64,000 nt of DNA. Origin: Alphaproteobacteria bacterium UBA1185 (GTDB lineage Bacteria; Pseudomonadota; Alphaproteobacteria; Rs-D84). The stretch's first letter is position 1. Each line of letters begins with the position of its first letter. A model generated the notes under the pieces. That model did not search any database. It saw only the letters and a program-made list of their open reading frames with translations, and was not told where the DNA came from. This document shows, piece by piece, positions 5,236 through 37,217 of the stretch. A program made the position numbers and the translations under genes. The stretch is taken from NCBI GenBank assembly GCA_002310415.1, contig DBYN01000006.1, forward strand, positions 219,249 through 283,248, written 5' to 3'.

Positions 5236-5850
5236 ATGAAAAAAATATTTATGATTATTTGTGGAATGTTTATATCTTTGACTGCTGATGCCGCTGTGGA
5301 CAAGACTTTGGTGCAGAACGCAGAAAAATATTTGAATTCAATTGGCGGCTTAAAGGGCTCTTTTGTTCAAATGGCAAATGGAAAAACAGAAAGCGGATTG
5401 TTTTCTATGTTGCGCCCGGGTCGTGTTCGTTTAGATTATAAAAATGCACCAATTCAATTAATTTCAGATGGCAAGGATTTGTATTTTTATGATAAATCTT
5501 TGGATCAAATTACAACTGTTCCTTTGACCAGTACGCCTGCGGGAATTTTGGTTCGTAAAAGAATAGATTTACAAAATTCAGATATTAACGTTTCTGAAAC
5601 TTCAAACGATAAAAAAACGTTTACATTAAAAATGAATTTGCGTAATCAGGAAGGTTTGGGATATATGTCTGTGGTATTTAATAAATCGCCGGTGAAATTA
5701 AATTCTTGGTCTGTGGTTGATGCAACTGGAAATCAAACGGATGTGGTATTTAGTAATTTGAAATCTAAAACAGATTTTGGTAAAAATTATTTTCAATTAT
5801 CTCGTCATAAAACTGTTAGCACAAATGGTGGCGATGATTTTTATGATTAA
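5236..5850 (+). CDS. lolA: outer-membrane lipoprotein carrier protein LolA
   Basis: 204 aa with a signal peptide. LKGSFVQ and RPGRVRLDY motifs and length are typical of LolA. Confidence 0.8.
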   Translation: MKKIFMIICGMFISLTADAAVDKTLVQNAEKYLNSIGGLKGSFVQMANGKTESGLFSMLRPGRVRLDYKNAPIQLISDGKDLYFYDKSLDQITTVPLTSTPAGILVRKRIDLQNSDINVSETSNDKKTFTLKMNLRNQEGLGYMSVVFNKSPVKLNSWSVVDATGNQTDVVFSNLKSKTDFGKNYFQLSRHKTVSTNGGDDFYD

Positions 5851-9198: not shown

Positions 9199-10563
9199 AT
9201 GAAAAAATATCTTGTTTTGACATCTGTGCTGGCTTTAACTGCATGTGGTGGTGGTTCTGGTAGTAGCGGGGCTGGTGCCGATGTAAATACGGTTGTTGTT
9301 CCTGGCGATTTGGCGGGGCGTGTTACTGCAACTGATAATGATGTGATTACAAAAATGAAATCTGAAGTTATTGTGGCATCTAATTCTGATAATCCTTTGT
9401 CACGTAAAGCGACGGTTGAAAAAGATGGTGTAACATTTGCTTCATACAGATTGGAAGATATCCAATTATATGCGGCAGATTTTGCACATACTGATAATGG
9501 TTTTTTACAAATAGGAATGGATGAAAATACTGGACGTATAGAAAATATAACGATGACTGTTGGTGGTACAGGCGCACCTGTTGCACGTGATGGCAATACG
9601 AATCGTTTCTTTGGACCAATTTTTGAATATGTTGAAAATGGCAAAGATCAGGCTGTATACAGAACTGCGAATACGGGGCAAACTGCCGAAGACTTGGCAC
9701 AATTAAAGGCTGATTTGATTGCACAGGGCAAAATACAAGATGGTGGTCATTGGAATATGATAAATGAATATATGGATGTTGTAACGTATGGGCGTGATAT
9801 TGGCAATGGCGAATCGTTGCAATATGCCGATTTTGGACATTTCAATCCTGTATATAAGCAAAAATATAAAAACGTAGATGGTTTATCAAATGACCAAATG
9901 GCTTCGGCGCGTCAAGGTAAAGATTTGGGGCGCGGTTCAGAATTAGATGAAAGAAAAACTGCAGAAGATTTTAATGATGAAATGGCAGCAGAAGATTATC
10001 AATTGTTTGCTGGGGGATATGCAATTAGTGGTGTAAAGTTGGAAAAATCGTTGCAGCCAAATAATAATACTACTTATCGTGGTATGGCAATTGGGCGTTT
10101 GTATACGACTGTGTCTGCGGATGATGGCGTTAATAATGATGTACGTGAAGCAAAAGCGACAGCGGCAGGTTACAGTGCGGATCGTGATATAAACAAAGCC
10201 TTTACAACCAAATCAGCAACAATGACTATTGGGGCAGATGGGACTCAAACACTTTACATGCCGTTTAATACACAAAGTGATAATCCAGACAGCAAGTTTT
10301 ACGATATAACTTTGGTTCAACACAAGGATGGAACACTAGACACCGAATTCACAGGAAATCCAACAGATCCGAAACATAATAAGGGACATGCTTTGGAATA
10401 TATTGTTGAAAATGAAAGTGGTGTTAATTTTGGATATTATGGTGTGAATACGCCATCTGAAGCCGCCGGAACTGCACGTTTGTATTCCGCAGAAGATTTG
10501 GGTGGTGGTGTTCAACGTGAATATGAAGTTCAGGGCGCATACGGTATGAAATTACAACATTAA
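9199..10563 (+). CDS. surface-lipoprotein candidate, TbpB/fHbp/HpuA-like (putative Slam substrate)
   Basis: Lipobox LALTAC followed by a Gly/Ser linker GGGSGSSGAG. The C-terminal region TYRGMAIG...NFGYYGVNTPSEAAGTARLYS...VQGAYGMKLQH resembles the terminal 8-strand barrel signature (GxFYGpxAxExaG...GAFGa) of TbpB-type lipoproteins. Confidence 0.65.
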   Translation: MKKYLVLTSVLALTACGGGSGSSGAGADVNTVVVPGDLAGRVTATDNDVITKMKSEVIVASNSDNPLSRKATVEKDGVTFASYRLEDIQLYAADFAHTDNGFLQIGMDENTGRIENITMTVGGTGAPVARDGNTNRFFGPIFEYVENGKDQAVYRTANTGQTAEDLAQLKADLIAQGKIQDGGHWNMINEYMDVVTYGRDIGNGESLQYADFGHFNPVYKQKYKNVDGLSNDQMASARQGKDLGRGSELDERKTAEDFNDEMAAEDYQLFAGGYAISGVKLEKSLQPNNNTTYRGMAIGRLYTTVSADDGVNNDVREAKATAAGYSADRDINKAFTTKSATMTIGADGTQTLYMPFNTQSDNPDSKFYDITLVQHKDGTLDTEFTGNPTDPKHNKGHALEYIVENESGVNFGYYGVNTPSEAAGTARLYSAEDLGGGVQREYEVQGAYGMKLQH

Positions 10564-10587
10564 TATCCAAGGTGTGTTGTTTTTATT

Positions 10588-10620
10588 AAATTCGGTTCAT
10601 ACTTTTGAACCGAATTTTTA
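10588..10620 (+). terminator. rho-independent terminator
   Basis: AAATTCGGTTC-ATACTTTT-GAACCGAATTT hairpin followed by a T-run. Confidence 0.7.
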
Positions 10621-10694
10621 TATAATTTTATCTTGTTATATCTTGTAAAAATTACTATCATAGGACACAAGTCTTAGTAATGTATGGTATTTTT

Positions 10695-12140
10695 ATGAAA
10701 CGTATGTTTTTATCTTTGTTGTTTGTTATTGTTTCTACGTTTTCTGGTTGGGCGGTCGGATCGGTCAGTGTGCAGAAAACGTCTGATAATTCTGGTGTAA
10801 CGGAAAAAAATGAAAAGCCGGCAAAGCAAGCAAAAAAAACGTCCAAAAAAAACGACAAAAATGGGAAAACAGAAATTACAATGACATCATTAGATGCCGT
10901 TAAATTGGCTGGCAAAATGGTTGAAATGGGTGATTATGAACACGCAACTCAGATTTTAACAAAAATGCCACAAACCAAAAGTTTGCCTGTGGAAATTGAA
11001 CGGTGGTATTTGTTGGCGCAAATGGAACAACGCAAAGGTAATTATGACGAAGCAATCAAAATTTATCGTAAAATATTAGATTCTCAACCAGATTTATCCA
11101 AAATTCGTTATGAATTAGCATTATGTTATATGGCAAAGGAACAATGGTATCGCGCAGATTATCATCTTCGTTTGGCTATGGCTGGAAAAGATATACCTGA
11201 ACCGGTTAAACAACGTATGATGTATTACAGGTATATTGCACGTAAAAACAAAAATTGGAATGTTTGGTTTAATTTTGGCGCTGCACCAGACAATAATATT
11301 AATCAGGCTACGGGCGGTCAAGAATGTATTTTTTATAATGGGTATTTTTATGGATGTGCTGATAACCCTGAACCTGAAAAGGCTGTGGGATATAATTTGT
11401 TGTTGGGCGGAAATTACGAATTTAAATTGTCTGATAATTGGCGTTGGAAGAATGATGCGAATATTTATACTAATGTTTATAATAAACATAAGTATGATGA
11501 TTTGTATTTAGCCGGTTCTACCGGTCCACGTTATGTTTGGGGAAATGGTGATGTTTGGTTGGCTGGTGTTCTAAGTCGGCGTTGGTATGGCTGGGATCGT
11601 TATAATTGGGCGTATGGCGCCAAGATTGATACTAATTATGATTTAACACGTAAATTGTCTTCTGGATTGACTTTGCGTGTAATGAATAATAAGTATGATG
11701 AATATTGGCAATTGTTAAATGGGCAGACATGGACATTTGCACCACGTTTTTCTTATTCCTTTGACGCATCGAAATATGTTGTGTTAAGAGGTGCGATTGA
11801 TCGTGAAACAGCAAAAGCGGATGCATATGCAAATTGGCGATATAATGCTGGATTGGGTTTTGGGGCCGAGTTGTTGTGGGGATTTAGTGTTTATTTAGAG
11901 CCTTCTTTTACATGGGTGAATTATGATGGCGAACGTTATGTTCCAAAAGATGGGGATTTAAAATGGGTTGTTGAAAATGATTTTATTCAACGTTATTCCA
12001 TATCTTTGTCTAATAATAAATTCAGTATTTGGGGTATGGTGCCGACTTTGACGTGTAGTTATACGAAAAAAGATTCTAATATTCACAACCGGCAATATGA
12101 AAAAGCCACTTTGGAATTAACTTTCCAACAAAGATTTTAA
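10695..12140 (+). CDS. Slam-like outer-membrane protein (N-terminal TPR + C-terminal DUF560-type beta-barrel)
   Basis: Signal peptide MKRMFLSLLFVIVSTFSGWA. TPR-like helices (WYLLAQMEQRKGNYDEAIKIYRKILDSQPD, YELALCYMAKEQWYRADYHL). An aromatic/Gly-rich beta-strand region ends SYTKKDSNIHNRQYEKATLELTFQQRF with a terminal Phe. At about 480 aa it matches the size of Neisseria Slam. An alternative start lies at 10680. Confidence 0.7.
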   Translation: MKRMFLSLLFVIVSTFSGWAVGSVSVQKTSDNSGVTEKNEKPAKQAKKTSKKNDKNGKTEITMTSLDAVKLAGKMVEMGDYEHATQILTKMPQTKSLPVEIERWYLLAQMEQRKGNYDEAIKIYRKILDSQPDLSKIRYELALCYMAKEQWYRADYHLRLAMAGKDIPEPVKQRMMYYRYIARKNKNWNVWFNFGAAPDNNINQATGGQECIFYNGYFYGCADNPEPEKAVGYNLLLGGNYEFKLSDNWRWKNDANIYTNVYNKHKYDDLYLAGSTGPRYVWGNGDVWLAGVLSRRWYGWDRYNWAYGAKIDTNYDLTRKLSSGLTLRVMNNKYDEYWQLLNGQTWTFAPRFSYSFDASKYVVLRGAIDRETAKADAYANWRYNAGLGFGAELLWGFSVYLEPSFTWVNYDGERYVPKDGDLKWVVENDFIQRYSISLSNNKFSIWGMVPTLTCSYTKKDSNIHNRQYEKATLELTFQQRF

Positions 12141-26324: not shown

Positions 26325-27200
26325 ATGTTCCAAAAAATTTGTTTGTTTGCGACTTTGGCTTGTTTTTCTGGGGTTGCTTTTGGTGTTGAAAAATTGCCTC
26401 AGGTTGTTACATCTGAAGTATTTTATGAATATGAACCTGCACAGTATGCTGTTCAAGAAAAAGAAATTGTTACACAAAATCAGGTTACCCAGGTTCCTGT
26501 ATGGCCACTTGCTGGCTCGGACGCGGATTTTAAGATTGCTTGTGATGATATGGGGTGTGCGGACAATGTCGCACAGCCGGTTGTGGAATATGATTTTAAC
26601 GCAAGTGGTACTGGTTGGTCTGGTGGACCCGATATTGATAACGGTCGTCCTGTTCCGGCTGGGTTTGATAATGAATGTGAAAATAATGCGGAAATGCCAT
26701 TATTAAGACGCGAAATGTTGGAAGATGATGGTGGGGCGGTATTAGCCGTTTCGCGTAGTGCGCGTAAAAAATGTAACAAAAATTCGGATTCGTATGCTGT
26801 ATTTGCGGAACGTGCCGGTTTTGCAGCAGAAAAAACTTGTGATAAATCTGCTGTTGTTGACGAAGCCGAGATAGATGTTATGATTGATACAGATGAAAAG
26901 ATAAGTGAATCTAATGATGAACAGGCACCTGTGAATATTCGTAATCAAGTTCGTTCTTGGGTTGTTGCAAGTGGTCAAACGTTACGTCAGGTTTTACAGT
27001 CTTGGTGCGACAGGGAAGGTTGGGATTTGGTTTGGACTACATCGCGTGAATACCCTATAGAAGCCAGTGCGGTATTCAAAGGTCGCTTTGTGGATGTGGC
27101 ATCTGCGTTGGTTAGAAATTTTGAGCGTGCTACACCAATACCTTATGCGAAATTTTACAAAGGAAATCGTGTAATAGTTGTTTCAACATCGGAAGAATAA
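26325..27200 (+). CDS. TcpQ/PilL-like secretin-associated protein (C-terminal TcpQ-type domain)
   Basis: Signal peptide MFQKICLFATLACFSGVAFG. The C-terminal SWVVASGQTLRQVLQSWCDREGWDLVWTTSREYPIEASAVFKGRFVDVASALVRNF...KFYKGNRVIVV matches my recollection of the TcpQ domain pattern (W-v--G-tL---L--W----GW-lvW ... f-G-f--Av--L ... y-gN-vlvV). Confidence 0.6.
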   Translation: MFQKICLFATLACFSGVAFGVEKLPQVVTSEVFYEYEPAQYAVQEKEIVTQNQVTQVPVWPLAGSDADFKIACDDMGCADNVAQPVVEYDFNASGTGWSGGPDIDNGRPVPAGFDNECENNAEMPLLRREMLEDDGGAVLAVSRSARKKCNKNSDSYAVFAERAGFAAEKTCDKSAVVDEAEIDVMIDTDEKISESNDEQAPVNIRNQVRSWVVASGQTLRQVLQSWCDREGWDLVWTTSREYPIEASAVFKGRFVDVASALVRNFERATPIPYAKFYKGNRVIVVSTSEE

Positions 27201-27223
27201 TTATCATTTGGGACTTGTAGGAG

Positions 27224-28858
27224 ATGAAGATGAAAATGCGTTTGAAAATGTTTTTAACGGGTTTGTTGATGATGGGGGCGTTGGCGGGTTGCACTTTGCA
27301 AGAATCTGCCAAGGTGTCGGCATCTGTTGATCAAAACTTTGTAAAAGCATATGAAGCATTTGAAATGGCGAAAAATCCGCGTGCCAAGGTTGCTAGTGGT
27401 GATACGGTTTCTGTATCAGAAGGTGTTTGGTTGGGTAATAAATCTACGGTTTTGGAACATAAAAATACGTTGCCTGCTAAATTTGAAACTGATACAGGAA
27501 TTACGATTTTATTGAACGAGCCAGTAACGTTACAGGTTTTGGCAAATGATATAAATTCTATTACCGGTATTCCTGTCAAGATAGATAACCAGGTCGATTC
27601 GGAAAAGTTAAGAAAGACAGTTGATGTTGCGTATACTGGAAAGTTATCTGGTCTGTTGTCGCAAATTGCAACTGATTTAGATTTGTTGTGGTATTATGAC
27701 AAAGATGCGATTGTATTTTATGAAACAGAAACGCGGACATATACATTATATGCGCTGGGTACGGATGTATCATATCAATCTTCGGTTCAAACAGACGATG
27801 GAAATCAGGTTTCTTTGGAATCCACATTAAAAGAATGGGATGAAGTTGAATCAACAATAAGTTCAATTGTTAATTCATCTAAAAATTCTCAATTTACTGT
27901 TTCACGTAGTTTAGGAACAATCACAGTAACTGCATCGCCATCTGTGTTAAACAGGGTTGCGGAATATATTGCAAAACAGAACAAACGCTTGTCTCAGTTG
28001 GTAACCATAGATGTCAAAGTGTTACAAGTGTCTTTGTCTAATGAATCTGCATTTGGGTTGAATTTGGCGGCTGCGATTAATTCTGCATCTGGATTGAATA
28101 TAGTTGCAAATCCAAAAAATAATTTAGCGACCACAGAAGCAAGTTCTATGAATGTTGCTGTTTTATCTAATACAGTTTCGGCTTTGACAGGTGCAACACA
28201 TGGTGATGGATTAGAAGGTGCGTATACAAACGATCAAATTATGAATGGTTCTATGGCACGTGTGGCGGGAACAAATGCTTTGATAGAGGCTTTGGCAAAA
28301 CAAGGTAAGGTTTCTTTGGTGACAAATGTTGGTGTTACAACACGTAACAATCGTGTTGCACCCGTAACAAATACCAGAACAACTGGATACATAAAACGGT
28401 TTGAATCGCGTAATTTTACAACTGTTGAATCCAGTACGGTTGACCAAGATAATTTGGAAACAGGTTTTTCAATGCAATTGTTGCCTAACGTTTTGGAAAA
28501 CGGCAAGATTTTATTGTTGTTCAAAATGTCTATTCGTGAATTGTTAAGAATGTCAACTCAGACGATTGGTGATCAAATGAAAGTAACACTGCAATTACCA
28601 GAAGTAGAAGAACGTTCGTTTATGCAAGAAGTTATTATGGAATCTGGTCAAATGTTGGTAGTATCTGGATTTGAAAAGCAAAAGAATAATGATACACGTT
28701 ATGGTTTGGGGGATCCTGATTTTATGGCGTTGTCTGGGTCGCGTGAAACAGCAGCATCACGTGAAGTGTTGGTTGTTATTTTGACGCCTCAGGTTTTGGT
28801 TAGCCCGATGGATGCAGAACGTAATATTCAACAACATTGGGGCGCACCATTAAATTAA
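27224..28858 (+). CDS. lipoprotein secretin, type IVb PilN/TcpC-like
   Basis: Lipobox GALAGC. The secretin C-domain features are VTIDVKVLQVSLSNESAFGLNL, ...QMLVVSGFEKQKNND... and GLGDPDFMALSGSRETAASREVLVVILTPQVL. Confidence 0.75.
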   Translation: MKMKMRLKMFLTGLLMMGALAGCTLQESAKVSASVDQNFVKAYEAFEMAKNPRAKVASGDTVSVSEGVWLGNKSTVLEHKNTLPAKFETDTGITILLNEPVTLQVLANDINSITGIPVKIDNQVDSEKLRKTVDVAYTGKLSGLLSQIATDLDLLWYYDKDAIVFYETETRTYTLYALGTDVSYQSSVQTDDGNQVSLESTLKEWDEVESTISSIVNSSKNSQFTVSRSLGTITVTASPSVLNRVAEYIAKQNKRLSQLVTIDVKVLQVSLSNESAFGLNLAAAINSASGLNIVANPKNNLATTEASSMNVAVLSNTVSALTGATHGDGLEGAYTNDQIMNGSMARVAGTNALIEALAKQGKVSLVTNVGVTTRNNRVAPVTNTRTTGYIKRFESRNFTTVESSTVDQDNLETGFSMQLLPNVLENGKILLLFKMSIRELLRMSTQTIGDQMKVTLQLPEVEERSFMQEVIMESGQMLVVSGFEKQKNNDTRYGLGDPDFMALSGSRETAASREVLVVILTPQVLVSPMDAERNIQQHWGAPLN

Positions 28859-28948
28859 AATATAATTATACAAAAACAAAGATGCGCAAAAATTATGAGT
28901 AGGTATGCAAAAGTACATGAACATGCTGGAAATCGCAGAAACCTATAC

Positions 28949-30316
28949 ATGCAATCAAAGCGTTGTCTGATGGTTTTGGTTTTTGTGATGGGGTTGCATA
29001 ATATCGCTTTGGCTGCAAGTTGGGACTATCCATGTGAAGCAGTTAAATGTGGACCTGGATCGTATTTCTCAAGTAGTGACAATAGATGTAAAAAATGCAC
29101 AGAAGTTAAAGATACAGAGTTACAATCAGTTGGTGTAACAAAGGATATGTTGTGGTGTCCAGGGTATATGAGTGATTGTAATGATAAAAAGAATGGTTTA
29201 CATACGTGTGAGTCTTATATAAGAAATTATGATGACAACTATGAATGGTTTTTGGAAAATAATAACACGGACGAAGGTTGGAAAGAATTTACAACAGAAG
29301 TGGCTTGGTCACCCACAGTACAACAAAACCAGGAAAGAGAGGATTATCGTGATGAGGTTGTTGGTGTCAAATATGTTGCAGATGCCCTTAATGATTACAA
29401 AAAGTGTAAATTAACCGAGGTGCATTGTAAACCAGGGTACTATTTGCCAAAAAACACTGATAAATGTGAATTTTGTTCAAATGAATTCAGGAAATATTGT
29501 CCAGGTGGTTGGTATGAAGTAGAACAATCCAAAGATCAAGGCGTGTATGATTGTGATGCTTCAAAAATAACTGGTAGGTATCATACTGCATGTGTGTCTT
29601 GTCCGGATGGTATGCGAGCCAACTCGAATGAGGACAAGTTTATTTGGTATGATGTTATGATTAATGGTTCAAAGGCGGACTCATCAGATAGAGCGTTACG
29701 AAATATAGCTTGTATCAATAATAATGGATATGGTAAACATTATAAAGTTGAGTGTGGTAATGAGTTATCTAGTGACCCTGATTATAACAAGAAAAATGGT
29801 ATTTGGGGGTTGTGTGAAGAAGAAATTGGAGTGGCATCGTTACCTATCCAAAAGCAACATATTGAGATGGATAGAGTATATTTAAATGACAACTCAATCG
29901 TCGGTATAGAAATAAAAACATTCCCTGGTTCTGTGTACTATAACGGTACATATGTAAAATGTGCGGATTATCCAGAATTTGCAAAGGTGGCCAAAGAAGC
30001 ACGCATGTATTGCCCAGGAAATTGGGTAACAAAGGATGCAAATGGCAATTATCCAACCCCATTACAACAAATGAAACAATGCCCACCCAAAAAAGAGCCG
30101 AATGATGATTTATCCGGTTGTGAATGTATGTGGAAAGATAAGGGAGCCACAGAAACACCTGAGGGTGAGTGTATTCATAAAGAATTAAAATTGGGATATA
30201 AAGATTTATATTACGGACCATTTTGCAAAGATGATCCGACATGTCCATTGTTTAAACAATGTTGGACCAAGTTTAATAACAAAGCAGCATACAGAAAATG
30301 TATGGGCTTTGATTAA
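28949..30316 (+). CDS. secreted cysteine-rich protein with furin/TNFR-like repeats
   Basis: Signal peptide MQSKRCLMVLVFVMGLHNIALA from ATG 28949; the track ORF starts at 28895. I count 28 Cys in the mature part. Repeats are KCGPGSYFSSSDNRCKKC, HCKPGYYLPKNTDKCEFC, YCPGGWY, YCPGNWV and WCPGYMSDC. Confidence 0.6.
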   Translation: MQSKRCLMVLVFVMGLHNIALAASWDYPCEAVKCGPGSYFSSSDNRCKKCTEVKDTELQSVGVTKDMLWCPGYMSDCNDKKNGLHTCESYIRNYDDNYEWFLENNNTDEGWKEFTTEVAWSPTVQQNQEREDYRDEVVGVKYVADALNDYKKCKLTEVHCKPGYYLPKNTDKCEFCSNEFRKYCPGGWYEVEQSKDQGVYDCDASKITGRYHTACVSCPDGMRANSNEDKFIWYDVMINGSKADSSDRALRNIACINNNGYGKHYKVECGNELSSDPDYNKKNGIWGLCEEEIGVASLPIQKQHIEMDRVYLNDNSIVGIEIKTFPGSVYYNGTYVKCADYPEFAKVAKEARMYCPGNWVTKDANGNYPTPLQQMKQCPPKKEPNDDLSGCECMWKDKGATETPEGECIHKELKLGYKDLYYGPFCKDDPTCPLFKQCWTKFNNKAAYRKCMGFD

Positions 30317-30461
30317 TCAAGTGTAAAAATATCTTGCGGTTGTTTCATAGAAACATTGTCACGATAATACACAACAAAAAAACCACCCAATTTTATTACA
30401 CGAAACTTTATCGAAGTGTGACGGGCGGTTTTCTTTGATAAATAAAAGCACAACAACTTAA

Positions 30462-30722
30462 TTATGCGATTTTTGCAATTTTCTTTGCCAGACGAGCAAC
30501 TTTACGTGAAGCGGTTTTCTTTGGCATTGTTTTGCCAGCTGCTTTCATAATTTTGCTTTCTGCATTGCGCGCAGCTGCAATTGCAGCGACTTTGTCACCA
30601 GATTCAATCGCGCTTAATGCTTTTTTGGTTGCAGTTTTAACAGCACTACGACGTGCTGTGTTAATCGCATTTTTCTTTGTTGTTACTAAGATTCTTTTAT
30701 CACATGATTTATGATTTGCCAC
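30462..30722 (-). CDS. rpsT: 30S ribosomal protein S20
   Basis: 86 aa, basic. MANHKSCDKRILVTTKKN...ARRSAVKT is typical of bS20. Confidence 0.9.
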   Translation of the reverse strand: MANHKSCDKRILVTTKKNAINTARRSAVKTATKKALSAIESGDKVAAIAAARNAESKIMKAAGKTMPKKTASRKVARLAKKIAKIA

Positions 30723-31514: not shown

Positions 31515-32360
31515 ATGAAATTTATAGTGTCTGTGATAGTTGCGACGTTGGTTATATCCGGCGCAAATGCTGCACAAAGTGGACGTCCGGCGATGGCTGG
31601 TACCCGCGTTATATCGTCGCCACGTTATACAGCATCTGTGAATCAATTAAACGGAATGTCTGGTATGCCAAATGCTGTGACGGCCGGAAATCCTGTTGTT
31701 TCTGTAAACAACGTGGTTGAATCTGTTCCGCAGGATACTGTGAAAGAAGAATCAACAGAGGAAAAAGTTACTGTTGATATGCGCGAAGCAGAGCGTAATG
31801 CGTGCATTAATAATAATATTGGTGTTGGCAATACTTTTGTGTGGGCTTCAAAATACAGCAATACAGATGATTATGCCAGCATGGTTGAAGACAGTGAACA
31901 TCCTGAAAATAATGTTTGCTTTGTAAGGGTTGAATTAAAATCTTCTAATGAATCCAGAATCAAGGTGTCTGACATAGAACCAAAGTATTTTATGTGGGGT
32001 GAACCTATTACTTGTGGCAGTTGGGTCAGCAAAAAGGAAATGGAAAAACGTATTTTGGATGCTAAAAAGGGTGTGCGTATTGGTGGTATAGTAGCAAGTA
32101 CTATTGGTGGTATGGGATTGGGTGTCGGTGCGATGGAGTTATTTGGAAACAGGTTGATTGGTGGCAAAGTCGAAGGCCAAAAATCTGCATCCAGTGTAGA
32201 GTTGTACAAGCATAGATTATTAGCATTACAGAAAAGTGATAAAACTTTGTATGATAAATATGTAGCGGATTTGCATACGTTAAGCGATGCGTGTCGCGAG
32301 AATTCTGTACCCAGTGACAATTGTATCACGTACAACGAGCTTTTAAAGGCAATCGAATAA
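31515..32360 (+). CDS. hypothetical secreted/membrane-anchored protein
   Basis: Signal peptide ...VISGANA. The Cys-containing middle domain includes ACINNNIGVGNTFVWASKYSN and NNVCFVRVELKS. A Gly-zipper TM (IGGIVASTIGGMGLGVGAMELFG) precedes a helical C-terminal tail. Confidence 0.5.
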   Translation: MKFIVSVIVATLVISGANAAQSGRPAMAGTRVISSPRYTASVNQLNGMSGMPNAVTAGNPVVSVNNVVESVPQDTVKEESTEEKVTVDMREAERNACINNNIGVGNTFVWASKYSNTDDYASMVEDSEHPENNVCFVRVELKSSNESRIKVSDIEPKYFMWGEPITCGSWVSKKEMEKRILDAKKGVRIGGIVASTIGGMGLGVGAMELFGNRLIGGKVEGQKSASSVELYKHRLLALQKSDKTLYDKYVADLHTLSDACRENSVPSDNCITYNELLKAIE

Positions 32361-32376
32361 ACAAAAAGGTGAAAAA

Positions 32377-32877
32377 ATGAAAAAATATTTATTTGTGTTA
32401 TTTATGTGTTTACCAGTGATGGCTGTGGGTGCTCCGTCTGTAAGGGCGTTGGGCGGTGGTGCTGCGGTCAGTGGTTCAACGGGGGCGATGGCCACGAAAG
32501 TTACGCCTGCAAAAACTGGTTCTGCTGGTGTATCGCGTGTTGGATCGTTACGTGCCAGGGCGGTCACAACTGGGGCATCTGGTGGGGCTATTTCCGGGTC
32601 TTCAACACGTTTCCCGGTTTTGTTGCCAACCAAGTCTTATAACAGTGTTCAAGCACCACGTCCAGTGGCTTCGGGAACAACGAATGTGAATACAACTGAA
32701 ATTAACGAAAATATAACGAATATTACAAATCAAATCACAGAAATAGATGGTCGTATTACAAATATCACAGAATCTTTGAAAGATGATTCAAGATTTGATT
32801 CAATTAGTACATTGCCTTTGTCTGGCAACCCCGGGGAAAATCGTGCGTGGATATGGGTTGAGGATTCGGCTGAATAG
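32377..32877 (+). CDS. hypothetical secreted protein, APSV(R/K)xLG...IW(V/I)E family (paralog of 58851..59402)
   Basis: Signal peptide ending VG|APSVRALGGG, a Gly/Ser/Ala-rich segment, an Asn/Ile heptad-like segment NENITNITNQITEIDGRITNITESL, and a C-terminal RAWIWVEDSAE. Confidence 0.55.
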   Translation: MKKYLFVLFMCLPVMAVGAPSVRALGGGAAVSGSTGAMATKVTPAKTGSAGVSRVGSLRARAVTTGASGGAISGSSTRFPVLLPTKSYNSVQAPRPVASGTTNVNTTEINENITNITNQITEIDGRITNITESLKDDSRFDSISTLPLSGNPGENRAWIWVEDSAE

Positions 32878-35672: not shown

Positions 35673-37217
35673 ATGAAAACGCTGGAACCCGCAGAACTCT
35701 ACACACACACACACACACACACACAACTAAAGCGTTGCCTGGCATTTTTATTTTCTGCGGTCTTGTTTGTTTCGTCTGCGTTTAGTACAACTCTTCCATC
35801 TGGTTATACGGAATTAGAATACATTGAATCAACAGGAACGCAATATATTGATACTGATTTTGTATATGATAATAACACCAGGGTTGTTTGGGATATACAA
35901 TTAACAGCACAAATTCCTTCATCTGAAAGTAATAATTCTGGTGTTGGATGGGTTAATAATGATTATGAAAAATTGGGTTTTACAATTAATAAAGATGATT
36001 CAATGTTACGTGTATACAAAGCATTTGCGGCTGAAGCAAATCCCGCTGGAGATACAAGACTTGCCACAATTCAAGTACATAATAATCGTCATGTAATAGA
36101 AATAAATTCACCTATAAACAAAGCATATGTAGATGGTGTTGAATATACATTTGATCCTGCAGTAGGTGATATAAATAATGACTATAATTTAACATTACCT
36201 TTATTTGCTTGGTTAGGCGGGACGGGATATAGACAATATTTTATAGGAAGAATGTATTCTGTAAAAATTTATGACAATGGAACACTAGCAAGAAATATGA
36301 TACCTGCTAAACGCAATTCTGATAATGCTGTAGGTATGTATGATACCATAAATGATGTATTTTATACCAATTCTGGCACAGGAAGTTTTACAGCAGGTCC
36401 AGAAATAACACTTCCAGAATACATACCGTTGGAGTATATTGAAAGCAGTGGAACACAGTATATATGTCTTAATTTTGGTTTTGATAAAACAGACGAAATA
36501 GAAACTGAATTTTCTATTCAAGACACTGATGTTTGTAACAAATATATGGTTGGTACAACAAGCTGGAACACCAATAACAATAGATTTGGAATGGGAGAAC
36601 ATTGTTGGGATTCCACATATAATTTTGCTTATGGTTCTGCTGACAATAGGAATACAAGTTTGTCGCCGCACAGAAGTTTGGACGGACAAATTCATAGATG
36701 GTTTTACAAAGATCTTGTAGTTTCTATTCCAGAACTTTCTACAAGTTTGGATGTTTCGGGTATAACTTTTGGTGGAACCACTACGAACTTGCGGTTGTTT
36801 TACGGCGGGATTAATGGTAGTGTGACAACAGGCAAGATGAAGTATTATAAACATATTAAAAACGGAACAGTTGTGTTTAATGGTATTCCAGCTAAAAGAA
36901 AATCTGATAATGTAGTTGGATTATATGATTTAGTTGGTGATACATTTTATACTAATTCAGGTACAGGTGATTTTATAGCGGGACCTGAAGTAGTAGACAG
37001 TACATGTACAAGTGCAACAGTTATGGGTGAAAATGTCTGTTTAATAGATACAGAACCAAATGGAGATTATATAAATGTCAGATATAATAATGAACAATAT
37101 TATTTAATGCTGGATTCAGAAAATGACTATCCAATACATGTTGGTTCAAGTAATAAATTAAAAATAATAACAAATACCGCTACCTATAACGTTCATGATG
37201 CATCAGTTGTGGAATAA
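35673..37217 (+). CDS. secreted two-module lectin/tail-fibre-like protein, putatively phase-variable
   Basis: 514 aa reading M-K-T-L-E-P-A-E-L-Y-(TH)3-T-Q, then signal peptide LKRCLAFLFSAVLFVSSAFS. Two homologous modules span aa 41-244 and 247-440. Each starts LP..Y..LEYIES(T/S)GTQYI and ends IPAKR.SDN.VG.YD...D.FYTNSGTG.F.AGPE. Confidence 0.7.
   Translation: MKTLEPAELYTHTHTHTQLKRCLAFLFSAVLFVSSAFSTTLPSGYTELEYIESTGTQYIDTDFVYDNNTRVVWDIQLTAQIPSSESNNSGVGWVNNDYEKLGFTINKDDSMLRVYKAFAAEANPAGDTRLATIQVHNNRHVIEINSPINKAYVDGVEYTFDPAVGDINNDYNLTLPLFAWLGGTGYRQYFIGRMYSVKIYDNGTLARNMIPAKRNSDNAVGMYDTINDVFYTNSGTGSFTAGPEITLPEYIPLEYIESSGTQYICLNFGFDKTDEIETEFSIQDTDVCNKYMVGTTSWNTNNNRFGMGEHCWDSTYNFAYGSADNRNTSLSPHRSLDGQIHRWFYKDLVVSIPELSTSLDVSGITFGGTTTNLRLFYGGINGSVTTGKMKYYKHIKNGTVVFNGIPAKRKSDNVVGLYDLVGDTFYTNSGTGDFIAGPEVVDSTCTSATVMGENVCLIDTEPNGDYINVRYNNEQYYLMLDSENDYPIHVGSSNKLKIITNTATYNVHDASVVE
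35701..35724. repeat. perfect (AC)12 dinucleotide microsatellite inside the 5' coding region
   Basis: Read directly: ctct-(ac)12-aactaa. It lies between ATG 35673 and the signal-peptide codons. Confidence 0.98.

What the first reader, a model, noticed from the sequence alone, without database searches (positions are those of the whole stretch)
28949..30316. 28-Cys secreted protein with furin/TNFR-like CxPGxY...CxxC repeats immediately downstream of the secretin
The ORF has a Sec signal peptide and, by my count, 28 cysteines in about 455 mature residues. Its recurring units are KCGPGSYFSSSDNRCKKC, HCKPGYYLPKNTDKCEFC, YCPGGWY, YCPGNWV and WCPGYMSDC. This spacing is reminiscent of eukaryotic furin-like, GCC2/GCC3 and TNFR cysteine-rich repeats, and of protist surface antigens, rather than typical bacterial periplasmic proteins. 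Its position as third gene behind the TcpQ-like and secretin genes, 37 nt after the secretin stop, suggests co-transcription. It could be a secretin-dependent exported or surface protein that mimics a host-type Cys-rich module. I know of no described secretin-plus-Cys-rich-cargo arrangement of this kind.
Basis: partly seen in the sequence, partly recalled or inferred. Interest (0 to 1): 0.65.

Follow-up and report, generated by a model that had tools for sequence, protein, structure and literature searches.

The report
Variable cysteine-rich protein beside a secretin
The gene is real and encodes an exported, cysteine-packed protein of a small undescribed family found only in tiny-genome gut bacteria (Candidatus Enterousia), but it sits behind the secretin because that spot is a fast-changing slot for surface-type genes, so its position is no evidence that it is the secretin's cargo.

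Summary
ORF 28949-30316 (alternative ATG 28895) encodes 455 aa with a Sec-type signal peptide, 29 Cys (28 mature; 6.4% against 1.2% background) and all five quoted CxPGxY/CxxC motifs. It is the third gene after a TcpQ-like gene and a PilN-type lipoprotein secretin.

The cargo interpretation is not supported. The secretin is 82-94% identical across more than 120 protein clusters from relatives. Homology stops at its stop codon and resumes near rpsT. The interval holds unrelated secreted-protein genes in different lineages. Samples with the same secretin protein differ there by (AC)n slippage, (AT)n slippage or a 70-bp inversion of the start codon.

Homologues of the protein number 41 representatives among 1.84 billion. 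In five other loci they lie after nrdG (two loci), murG, an RNase E/G gene and beside tRNA-Pro, never next to a secretin. The family combines variable Cys-rich units with a conserved ~130-aa domain ending CMGFD. It often uses a leader, shared with unrelated families, that carries a phase-variable (AC)n tract. That tract has decayed in the window gene.

No HMM or fold search places the family in TNFR, furin-like, GCC2_GCC3 or VSP.

Best reading: a disulfide-rich variable surface or secreted protein in a contingency slot.

The parts
26325..27200 (+). TcpQ-like gene (context; conserved in relatives)
   Evidence: PF10671 TcpQ, E 1.3e-18, aa 210-287. Present upstream of the secretin in all related loci.
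27224..28858 (+). PilN/TcpC-type secretin, probably a lipoprotein (LAGC lipobox) (context)
   Evidence: PF00263, E 1.3e-12. TIGR02520 PilN family, E 5e-76, 256 bits, below the 287.65 cutoff. It is 82-94% identical to more than 120 protein clusters from relatives.
28861..30422 (.). Variable slot between the secretin stop codon and the 3' end of rpsT
   Evidence: blastn homology to seven related loci ends at 28858-28860 and resumes at 30423-30462. Slot content differs between lineages.
28917..28970 (+). Decayed copy of the conserved leader. Its canonical ATG is out of frame with the gene body, giving an 18-codon uORF. The (AC)n tract has collapsed to ATACATGCAAT.
   Evidence: DNA alignment with leaders of L001, L003, L004, L005, L011 and window 35673. 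Frames read from the sequence.
28949..30316 (+). Cys-rich protein CDS, 455 aa (an in-frame alternative ATG at 28895 gives 473 aa)
   Evidence: A 99% identical copy is P0001 in L002.
28949..29014 (+). Sec type I signal peptide (MQSKRCLMVLVFVMGLHNIALA, with A-L-A before the cleavage site)
   Evidence: Read from the sequence. The homologous K/R-R-C-L hydrophobic leader occurs in family members.
29033..29209 (+). Cys-rich module 1 (aa 29-87; CGPGSYF...CKKC, WCPGY)
   Evidence: Motifs. AF2 pLDDT 74-89 for aa 31-90, modelled as beta-hairpins.
29405..29602 (+). Cys-rich module 2 (aa 153-218; CKPGYYLPKNTDKCEFC...YCPGGWY...QGVYDC), the canonical family repeat unit
   Evidence: Repeat unit aligned across members. 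AF2 pLDDT 83-91.
29906..30313 (+). Conserved family domain of about 130 aa, ending ...LFKQCWTK...YRKCMGFD
   Evidence: Most of the invariant and near-invariant columns of the family alignment lie here. It is the part matched by most of the 41 representatives (profile positions about 295-427). AF2 pLDDT 86-94 for aa 321-410.
35673..37217 (+). Second variable-protein gene in the window. It carries the intact leader with (AC)12 at 35701-35724 and is in frame. It belongs to an unrelated mature family (LPxGYTELEYI...).
   Evidence: The same family fills the secretin slot in L010 and L011.

Best explanation
The gene encodes a Sec-exported, disulfide-rich protein. It belongs to a small, undescribed, highly diverse family confined, as far as any member can be placed, to Candidatus Enterousia (Alphaproteobacteria, order Rs-D84; gut bacteria with genomes under 1 Mb and a partner-dependent lifestyle).

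Family members combine a variable number of Cys-rich units with a conserved domain of about 130 aa ending CMGFD. The unit is C-x-x-G-x-Y-[LM]-P-x4-5-C-x-x-C ... Y-C-P-G-G-x-[FY] ... G-[VIL]-x-x-C.

Many members, and unrelated secreted-protein families in the same genomes, start with one shared leader: M-K-T-L-E-P-A-E-L-Y-(T-H)n-Q-L-K-R-C-L. Its (AC)n tract switches translation on and off by slipped-strand mispairing.

The window gene occupies a gene-turnover (contingency) slot between the convergent secretin and rpsT genes. I read its adjacency to the secretin as positional, not functional.

The most likely role (inferred, not shown) is a variable cell-surface or released ligand-binding or antigenic protein, used in contact with a partner cell or host, or targeted by phage or immunity. 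After Sec export it would be oxidised to about 14 disulfides in the periplasm. In this copy the (AC)n switch has decayed, so the gene is no longer switchable. It is read from ATG 28949 or 28895.
For: Shown:
- Lineage. The only genome hits are two paralogues in a Ca. Enterousia MAG. One family member carries an 'Alphaproteobacteria bacterium' MAG label with the same IJL05 locus-tag prefix as one secretin relative. The lifestyle of the lineage is described in PMC12306168.
- Rarity and diversity. There are 41 representatives among 1.84e9 proteins. Nine of ten clusters checked have one or two members and the tenth has three.
- Architecture. The C-terminal domain is conserved, the N-terminal part is variable and the unit recurs. 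Four members place the domain N-terminally, ahead of another domain.
- No linkage to a secretin. Family members lie after nrdD-nrdG (L003, L005), after murG (L004), after an RNase E/G gene (L006) and beside tRNA-Pro (L001).
- Slot behaviour. The flanks are syntenic and homology breaks exactly at the secretin stop codon. The slot holds at least seven unrelated contents.
- Phase variation among samples that share the same secretin protein. (AC)19 against (AC)21 turns the gene OFF or ON in L010 and L011. (AT)4 against (AT)5 shifts the frame in L012 against L013/L014. An exact 70-bp inversion carries the RBS and ATG in L015 against L016.
- Shared leader in front of three unrelated mature families. 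THTHTH leaders occur in family members P0128, P0141 and P0145.
- Cysteine parity. The mature protein has an even count (28). Where other members have the first Cys pair of the conserved domain, the window protein has T/F and Y, and it has an extra pair, C426 and C432. This fits an all-disulfide protein.
- A DsbA-like gene lies two genes from a family member in L001.
Against: - Surface exposure, disulfide bonding and any binding function are inferred. There are no expression or localisation data.
- The protein has no lipobox, no beta-barrel and no recognisable anchor, so its route across the outer membrane is unknown. It could simply stay in the periplasm.
- The window copy has no repeat tract or invertible element. 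Its canonical leader ATG is out of frame, so it may be poorly expressed.
- The slot nearly always holds a co-directional gene for a secreted protein directly behind a secretin. A functional link is therefore not excluded.
- The frame differences come from metagenome assemblies of different samples. They could be fixed strain differences or assembly errors rather than active switching.
Confidence: 0.6

Rival explanations
1. Secretin-dependent exoprotein. The protein is Sec-exported to the periplasm and then passed through the adjacent TcpQ/PilN-type secretin. This would resemble TcpF or CofJ of type IVb pili, or a T2SS substrate. The slot would hold interchangeable cargoes.
For: - The gene is co-directional and lies 36-90 nt after the secretin, with no terminator-like site between them in the window.
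- In most related lineages the gene just behind the secretin also encodes a signal-peptide protein.
- There is precedent: TcpF and CofJ are secreted by T4b pili and encoded in the pilus operon (PMC9565799, PMC10120004, PMC6048534).
- A soluble protein with no lipid anchor needs some route across the outer membrane.
Against: - Linkage is not conserved for this family. In five other loci the family member is away from any secretin.
- The slot can hold a minus-strand M23 peptidase gene instead.
- In L012-L014 a strong hairpin followed by a T-run sits right after the secretin stop codon.
- The same kinds of variable gene fill other convergent junctions, for example after dnaA in the window.
- The 64-kb window contains no prepilin, no pilus ATPase and no platform gene. 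The literature reports type IV pili only for another lineage and does not mention them for Rs-D84.
- Mature N-termini are not conserved across the family, so there is no TcpF-like N-terminal signal.
Confidence: 0.12
2. A periplasmic resident protein, for example a redox buffer, a metal-binding protein or a structural envelope protein. In this reading the cysteine content reflects chemistry rather than a disulfide-knotted surface module.
For: - It has a Sec signal peptide and no detectable outer-membrane targeting feature.
- It is very rich in Cys.
- One family member gives a weak metallothionein-type Pfam hit at E 0.025.
Against: - Hypervariability, near-singleton clusters, the phase-variable leader and multiple paralogues per genome are signatures of exposed proteins under diversifying selection, not housekeeping periplasmic proteins.
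- The Cys positions fall in conserved paired patterns, and pairs are lost or gained together.
- AF2 models the modules as beta-hairpin, disulfide-type units.
Confidence: 0.12
3. A decaying or silent gene. The window copy would be a locked-OFF remnant of a formerly phase-variable gene and no longer make protein.
For: - The canonical leader ATG at 28917 is out of frame and ends after 18 codons.
- The (AC)n tract has decayed.
- Neither 28895 nor 28949 has an obvious Shine-Dalgarno sequence.
Against: - A 1.37-kb frame remains open in 37% G+C DNA.
- The family-invariant residues of the C-terminal domain are retained.
- A 99% identical copy in another sample differs at only six residues and has no frameshift or stop codon.
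- The ATG at 28949 starts a well-formed signal peptide.
Confidence: 0.1

Closest known systems
Helicobacter pylori Hop/OipA-type outer-membrane protein genes, with CT dinucleotide repeats in the signal-peptide coding region (PMC10564699). Neisseria opa CTCTT leader repeats are similar (my own knowledge).
   Same: A dinucleotide tract inside the signal-peptide coding region switches the frame of surface-protein genes. One leader design is shared by several paralogous genes. ON and OFF states are seen between samples.
   Different: The mature proteins here are soluble-looking, Cys-rich modular proteins rather than beta-barrel OMPs. The same leader fronts at least three unrelated mature families. 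The window copy has lost the tract.
Giardia variant-specific surface proteins (VSPs) and other protist CXXC-rich surface antigens (my own knowledge).
   Same: A variable Cys-rich, CXXC-containing ectodomain is joined to a conserved C-terminal region. The family is diverse.
   Different: No Pfam VSP hit in 33 members. There is no C-terminal transmembrane helix or CRGKA tail. The organism is bacterial and the export route is different. The similarity lies in design, with no evidence of common descent.
Eukaryotic GCC2_GCC3/Ephrin_rec_like (PF07699), TNFR and furin-like Cys-rich repeats.
   Same: The C-x-x-G-x-Y ... C-x-x-C spacing is similar, and AF2 models small beta-hairpin disulfide modules. 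The weak Foldseek hits are all to such domains (CaSR/mGlu CRD, Elapor1, DcR3).
   Different: No significant HMM, profile or fold match. The second half of the unit (Y-C-P-G-G-x-F ... Q-G-V-x-x-C) and the CMGFD domain have no counterpart.
TcpF (Vibrio cholerae) and CofJ (ETEC): soluble proteins secreted by type IVb pili (PMC9565799, PMC10120004, PMC6048534).
   Same: A Sec-exported soluble protein is encoded next to T4b-type outer-membrane components (a TcpQ-like gene and a TcpC/PilN-like secretin).
   Different: The window has no pilin, minor pilin or ATPase genes. There is no conserved N-terminal aromatic secretion signal across the family. There is no sequence or fold similarity. Linkage to the secretin is not conserved.

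Membership tests
GCC2_GCC3 / Ephrin_rec_like (PF07699) | Match to the Pfam HMM at or above the gathering score | tested here: not met
   No hit for the window protein at E<=1. Among 33 family members, one hit at E 0.089, far below threshold.
TNFR_c6, furin-like and Giardia VSP repeats | HMM match, or sequence-profile similarity to solved examples | tested here: not met
   None of these families appears among the Pfam hits at E<=1 for 33 members. PDB searches with the family profile, with member P0138 and with the repeat-unit profile found no such protein at E<=10.
TNFR-like / Cys-rich beta-hairpin module fold | Significant structural superposition on a solved Cys-rich domain | tested here: inconclusive
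   Foldseek against the PDB gave no hit at E<=0.001. The best hits have E 0.5-3 and probability <=0.3. Many are Cys-rich domains (mGlu3, CaSR, Elapor1 at 25% identity over 72 columns, DcR3). The model is confident only in parts.
T4b-pilus-secreted proteins (TcpF/CofJ type) | Encoded in an operon with pilin, minor pilin and assembly ATPase genes | tested here: not met
   Only the TcpQ-like gene and the secretin are present. Pfam annotation of the window ORFs and a prepilin-motif scan found no pilus genes in 64 kb.
T4b-pilus-secreted proteins (TcpF/CofJ type) | Flexible mature N-terminus with a conserved aromatic secretion signal that binds the minor pilin | tested here: not met
   The window's mature N-terminus is ASWDYPC, with only about 6 residues before the first Cys. 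The N-termini of other members (KCEIGNC, GTQKCNAGEY, KKIECKAGQY) share no such motif.
T4b-pilus-secreted proteins (TcpF/CofJ type) | Secretion depends on the pilus and secretin | not testable with these tools
   This needs genetics or a secretome in a cultured or heterologous system.
   In five other loci the family member has no adjacent secretin. Behind orthologous secretins lie unrelated genes.
SSR-controlled contingency (phase-variable) genes | A repeat tract in the 5' coding region whose length changes the reading frame | tested here: not met
   For the window gene itself, the tract has collapsed to ATACATGCAAT and the slot has no SSR of 4 or more units. The feature is met for relatives and slot neighbours: (AC)19 against (AC)21 in L010 and L011; (AC)12 in window gene 35673; THTHTH leaders in P0128, P0141 and P0145.
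'CMGFD' Cys-rich family (defined here) | Conserved domain of about 130 aa with the invariant Cys pattern, ...KQCWTK... and a terminal CMGFD | tested here: met
   The window protein was one of the four sequences used to build the search profile, and its 99%-identical copy P0001 scores E 7.9e-156. Invariant columns C355, C378, C391, C393, C408, G423, C438, W439, T440, Y448, C451 and M452.
Surface lipoproteins (Slam or Lol substrates) | Lipobox with Cys at +1 | tested here: not met
   The cleavage region is IALA|AS and has no lipobox Cys. By contrast the secretin has LAGC.

The most novel reading that the evidence does not exclude
The highly conserved, apparently orphan TcpQ plus PilN-type secretin pair of Ca. 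Enterousia is a minimal outer-membrane export gate for a changing repertoire of Sec-exported, disulfide-rich, phase-variable proteins. The slot directly behind it would serve as the expression site for the current cargo. The secretin-plus-variable-cargo arrangement would then be real, and a new kind of secretion and antigenic-variation locus in a reduced genome.
Probability: 0.1. Interest if true: 0.8.

Novelty: new variant of a known kind. Interest (0 to 1): 0.45.

Why it matters
Ca. Enterousia and the order Rs-D84 are widespread, uncultured gut bacteria with genomes under 1 Mb. They are thought to live off partner cells, and nothing is known about how they make contact.

This work identifies candidate contact or antigen proteins. 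They form a private family of eukaryote-like Cys-rich modular proteins.

It also shows that these genomes keep dedicated hypervariable slots and three separate switching devices: a leader (AC)n tract shared by unrelated families, an intragenic (AT)n tract, and a 70-bp invertible segment that carries the start codon.

That is a heavy investment in surface variation for so small a genome. It gives concrete targets for metaproteomics, for strain tracking and for finding the partner or host ligand.

It also removes an attractive but unsupported 'secretin cargo' annotation.

Tried and rejected
- Pfam and NCBIfam on the window protein and on 33 family members gave no credible family.
- PDB sequence and profile searches with the family profile, member P0138 and the repeat-unit profile found nothing.
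- AF2 with a 4-sequence alignment was too poor to use, at pLDDT 40. With 33 sequences it was usable in parts. Foldseek against the PDB and BFVD then gave no significant hit.
- A scan of JGI metagenome contigs for family members found none.
- P0158, a 3842-aa protein with 20 matched stretches, is a repetitive protein that ends in what I read as a T9SS-type sorting domain typical of Bacteroidota. It scores by summed repeats. I rejected it as a relative.
- I looked for paralogues of the Cys-rich protein inside the window and found none. Only the leader is shared, with gene 35673.
- I looked for SSRs, direct repeats or an invertible element in the window slot and found nothing convincing.
- I looked for prepilin-type leaders in all window ORFs and found none.
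- I looked for a terminator or a clear sigma-70 promoter between the secretin and the gene. Neither was called, so co-transcription is neither shown nor excluded.
It is not in the slot there.
- I could not inspect disulfide geometry, because model coordinates are not exposed.
Full report
**1. The observation**

The window has an ORF at 28895..30316 on the + strand (473 aa). Read from the ATG at 28949 it gives 455 aa. A direct count finds 29 Cys. One is in the signal peptide and 28 are in the mature part, at positions 29...451. All five quoted motifs are present. Cys content is 6.4%, against 1.2% in 52 other window ORFs (P about 1e-12).

The N-terminus MQSKRCLMVLVFVMGLHNIALA|AS has the layout of a Sec type I signal peptide and no lipobox. 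I read this from the sequence.

The two upstream genes are a TcpQ-like gene (PF10671, E 1.3e-18) and a secretin (PF00263, E 1.3e-12). The secretin is closest to the PilN type IVb family (TIGR02520, 256 bits, below its curated cutoff) and has an LAGC lipobox. The mature protein is about 433 aa. The '37 nt' spacing belongs to the ATG at 28895, not to the quoted start at 28949.

**2. Organism and setting**

The window is ordinary chromosomal DNA of a diderm bacterium with 31-41% G+C. It carries PBP2, recJ, lolA, tatC, a Slam-like gene, gatAB, sufBC, rpsT, plsY, dprA, dnaA, dnaJ, gyrB, uvrC, dnaN, tolB and lepA.

The only genome hits for the Cys-rich protein are two paralogues in a 'Candidatus Enterousia sp.' MAG. 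Relatives of the secretin carry 'Alphaproteobacteria bacterium' or 'Candidatus Enterousia merdequi' labels.

Ca. Enterousia belongs to the order Rs-D84. These bacteria have genomes under 1 Mb and no respiration or TCA cycle. They are proposed to be obligate symbionts or parasites in animal guts. [quoted passage not shown]

**3. The family**

A word-indexed search of 5.8e9 proteins found only a 99% identical copy and one distant relative. A profile search added two more. An exhaustive HMM search of 1.84e9 representatives found 41, of which 39 have E<=1e-10. One of them, P0158, is a spurious repeat match. Nine of the ten clusters checked have one or two members and the tenth has three.

Alignment shows a conserved region of about 130 aa: C-x-A-G-x-V-x-x-N-G-x-C-V-x-C...Y-A-x-E-x-R-M-Y-C-P-G...Q-x-K-K-C-P-x-G-x-x-P-N-x-x-L-x-x-C-x-C...D-L-Y-Y-G-P...L-F-K-Q-C-W-T-K...Y-K-K-C-M-G-F-D. 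It follows an N-terminal part that is variable in length and sequence. In four members the conserved region comes first and is followed by a different domain (P0131, P0132, P0148, P0149). It is therefore a module and not a strict C-terminal sorting tag.

The variable part is built from a recurring unit: C-x-x-G-x-Y-[LM]-P-x4-5-C-x-x-C, a spacer, [YV]-C-P-G-G-x-[FY], then Q-G-[VIL]-x-x-C. Window residues 160-202 are a canonical copy.

Where the other members have the first Cys pair of the conserved region, the window protein has T/F and Y. It also has an extra pair at C426 and C432. Pairs change together and the mature count stays even. This is what a fully disulfide-bonded extracytoplasmic protein would show (inference).

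**4. Fold and family membership**

Pfam and NCBIfam give nothing for the window protein. Scanning all 33 aligned members gave no TNFR, furin-like or VSP hit, and a single Ephrin_rec_like hit at E 0.089. PDB sequence and profile searches were empty, including one with a profile of the repeat unit.

AF2 with 33 sequences gives confident beta-hairpin-rich modules for aa 30-90, aa 155-225 and aa 320-415. These are joined by low-confidence linkers.

Foldseek found no significant match in the PDB or BFVD. Many of the weak PDB hits (E 0.5-3, probability <=0.3) are to Cys-rich domains: class C GPCR CRDs, Elapor1 and DcR3.

Membership of any eukaryotic repeat family was tested and not met at the sequence level. 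At the fold level it remains open.

**5. Linkage to the secretin**

The secretin is strikingly conserved: 82-94% identity in the 120 best clusters, and 870 hits with E<1e-10. Its neighbourhood is syntenic in every relative examined: gatC, ruvX, sufBC, a 178-aa gene on the minus strand, then TcpQ, the secretin, a slot, rpsT on the minus strand, plsY, dprA and dnaA.

Nucleotide homology with the window ends at 28858-28860, the secretin stop codon. It resumes at 30423-30462, near the 3' end of rpsT. Only L002, which is the same strain at 99.7% identity, carries the Cys-rich gene there.

The slot otherwise contains:
- two unrelated 320-aa secreted proteins (L007-L009);
- an LPxGYTELEYI-family protein (L010, L011);
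- a different 36-Cys protein (L012-L014);
- an 821-aa, 62-Cys protein that also has CxAGYY...CxxC motifs (L015-L020);
- a TKQPTGDYATNTAL tandem-repeat protein, with or without a Gly-rich protein after it (L021-L025);
- a minus-strand M23 peptidase gene (L026).

Conversely, CMGFD-family genes in other genomes lie after nrdD-nrdG (L003, L005), after murG (L004), after an RNase E/G gene (L006) and beside tRNA-Pro with a DsbA-like gene nearby (L001). None is next to a secretin.

In most of these places the downstream neighbour is on the opposite strand. The window's second variable gene (35673-37217) lies the same way, between dnaA and dnaJ. Such convergent junctions are permissive sites for gene gain (inference).

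**6. Contingency behaviour**

A conserved leader, ATG AAA ACG CTG GAA CCC GCA GAA CTC TAC (AC)n AA CTA AAG CGT TGC CT, encodes MKTLEPAELY(TH)nQLKRCL. It precedes at least three unrelated mature families.

Samples that encode the identical secretin protein differ in three ways:
- L011 has (AC)21 and an open 329-aa frame. L010 has (AC)19 and stops after 23 codons.
- L012 has (AT)4 inside its 36-Cys gene. L013 and L014 have (AT)5, which shifts the frame.
- L016 and L015/L017-L020 differ by an exact 70-bp inversion between the 9-bp inverted repeats GGACGATTT and AAATCGTCC. The inverted segment carries the ribosome-binding site, the ATG and the first 18 codons of the 821-aa protein.

L018 also has a TGG>TAG change. 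Members P0128, P0141 and P0145 of the CMGFD family carry THTHTH leaders.

In the window gene the leader is recognisable at 28917-28970, but the tract has decayed to ATACATGCAAT. The canonical ATG is out of frame. The body of the gene is read from an ATG at 28949 that was created inside the tract remnant, or from 28895. No SSR or invertible repeat lies in the window slot.

**7. Interpretation**

The data fit a lineage-specific repertoire of variable, often phase-variable, Sec-exported proteins placed in gene-turnover slots. This gene is one locked member of that repertoire.

Surface or extracellular exposure, disulfide bonding and a binding or antigenic role are inferences. They rest on the hypervariability, the switching devices, the cysteine parity and the partner-dependent lifestyle of the lineage.

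How a soluble protein without a lipobox would cross the outer membrane is unknown. This gap keeps a secretin-dependent route alive as a minority hypothesis. Substrates of secretion systems need not be linked to the machinery, so loss of linkage removes the evidence for that route but does not disprove it.

Co-transcription with the secretin is possible in this window, because no terminator was called. In L012-L014 a hairpin followed by a T-run lies directly after the secretin stop codon.

**8. Comparison and novelty**

The switching logic matches H. pylori oipA/hop genes, which carry CT repeats in the signal-peptide coding region (PMC10564699), and Neisseria opa (my own knowledge). The protein design, a variable CXXC-rich ectodomain plus a conserved tail region, recalls Giardia VSPs (my own knowledge), without any sequence relationship.

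TcpF and CofJ are the known examples of soluble proteins secreted by T4b pili (PMC9565799, PMC10120004, PMC6048534). The defining features I could test, namely a pilus operon, an N-terminal aromatic signal and conserved linkage, are not met.

The family, its CMGFD domain and the shared leader are undescribed as far as my searches reach: no Pfam, NCBIfam or PDB match, and the one Ca. Enterousia paper I read mentions neither 'cysteine', 'surface' nor 'secretion'. I rate the finding a new variant of a known kind, variable surface-protein contingency loci, of moderate interest. The specific 'secretin plus Cys-rich cargo' claim is not supported.

Noticed in passing
window 35673-37217 (AC tract 35701-35724): A 514-aa secreted protein with two LPxGYTELEYIES-type domains starts with the conserved leader and an (AC)12 tract, which is in frame here. 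It lies between dnaA and the convergent dnaJ. The same position holds genes of different lengths (290-516 aa) in relatives, so this looks like a second variable slot.
   Followed up: partly
L015-L020, about 5760-5850 (related loci, slot behind the secretin): An exact 70-bp invertible segment lies between the 9-bp inverted repeats GGACGATTT and AAATCGTCC. It carries the RBS, the ATG and the first codons of an 821-aa, 62-Cys protein. One locus is ON (L016) and five are OFF. This is a start-codon-bearing invertible DNA switch in a genome under 1 Mb. The recombinase is unidentified.
   Followed up: partly
L010 9146-9230 vs L011 5221-5310; L012 about 9200 vs L013/L014 about 9115: Samples with identical secretin proteins differ by (AC)19 against (AC)21 in the leader (OFF or ON). 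Others differ by (AT)4 against (AT)5 inside a 36-Cys gene, which shifts the frame.
   Followed up: yes
window 26325-28858 and about 870 related proteins: The TcpQ-like plus PilN-type lipoprotein secretin pair is very strongly conserved (82-94% identity). It stands alone among housekeeping genes, with no pilin, ATPase or platform genes within 64 kb. The published description of Rs-D84 genomes mentions no type IV pili for them. What this secretin serves is unknown. dprA lies 4 kb downstream.
   Followed up: partly
window 9199-12140: A Slam-like gene (PF04575 SlipAM plus TPR_Slam, 10680-12140) is preceded by a 454-aa ORF with no family match (9199-10563). This looks like a surface-lipoprotein substrate and translocator pair.
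   Followed up: no
window 31515-32360 and 32377-32877: Two further ORFs with hydrophobic, signal-peptide-like N-termini and no credible family match lie between plsY and dprA. Their 5' parts are conserved in relatives but their 3' parts diverge (homology gaps about 32190-32790).
   Followed up: no
window 62752-63765: A phage-integrase-family tyrosine recombinase gene lies at the end of the window (Arm-DNA-bind_3, Phage_int_M and Phage_int_SAM_3 domains). It is a possible candidate for site-specific inversion or integration in this lineage. This has not been tested.
   Followed up: no
L021-L025, slot gene 1: A Cys-free secreted protein made of TKQPTGDYATNTAL(T/N)EGLA repeats changes repeat copy number between samples (184 against 222 aa). 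The following 330-aa Gly-rich gene is present or absent.
   Followed up: partly
L001 2283-3104: A DsbA/thioredoxin-like gene lies two genes downstream of CMGFD-family member P0002. This fits oxidative folding of these Cys-rich proteins in the periplasm.
   Followed up: no
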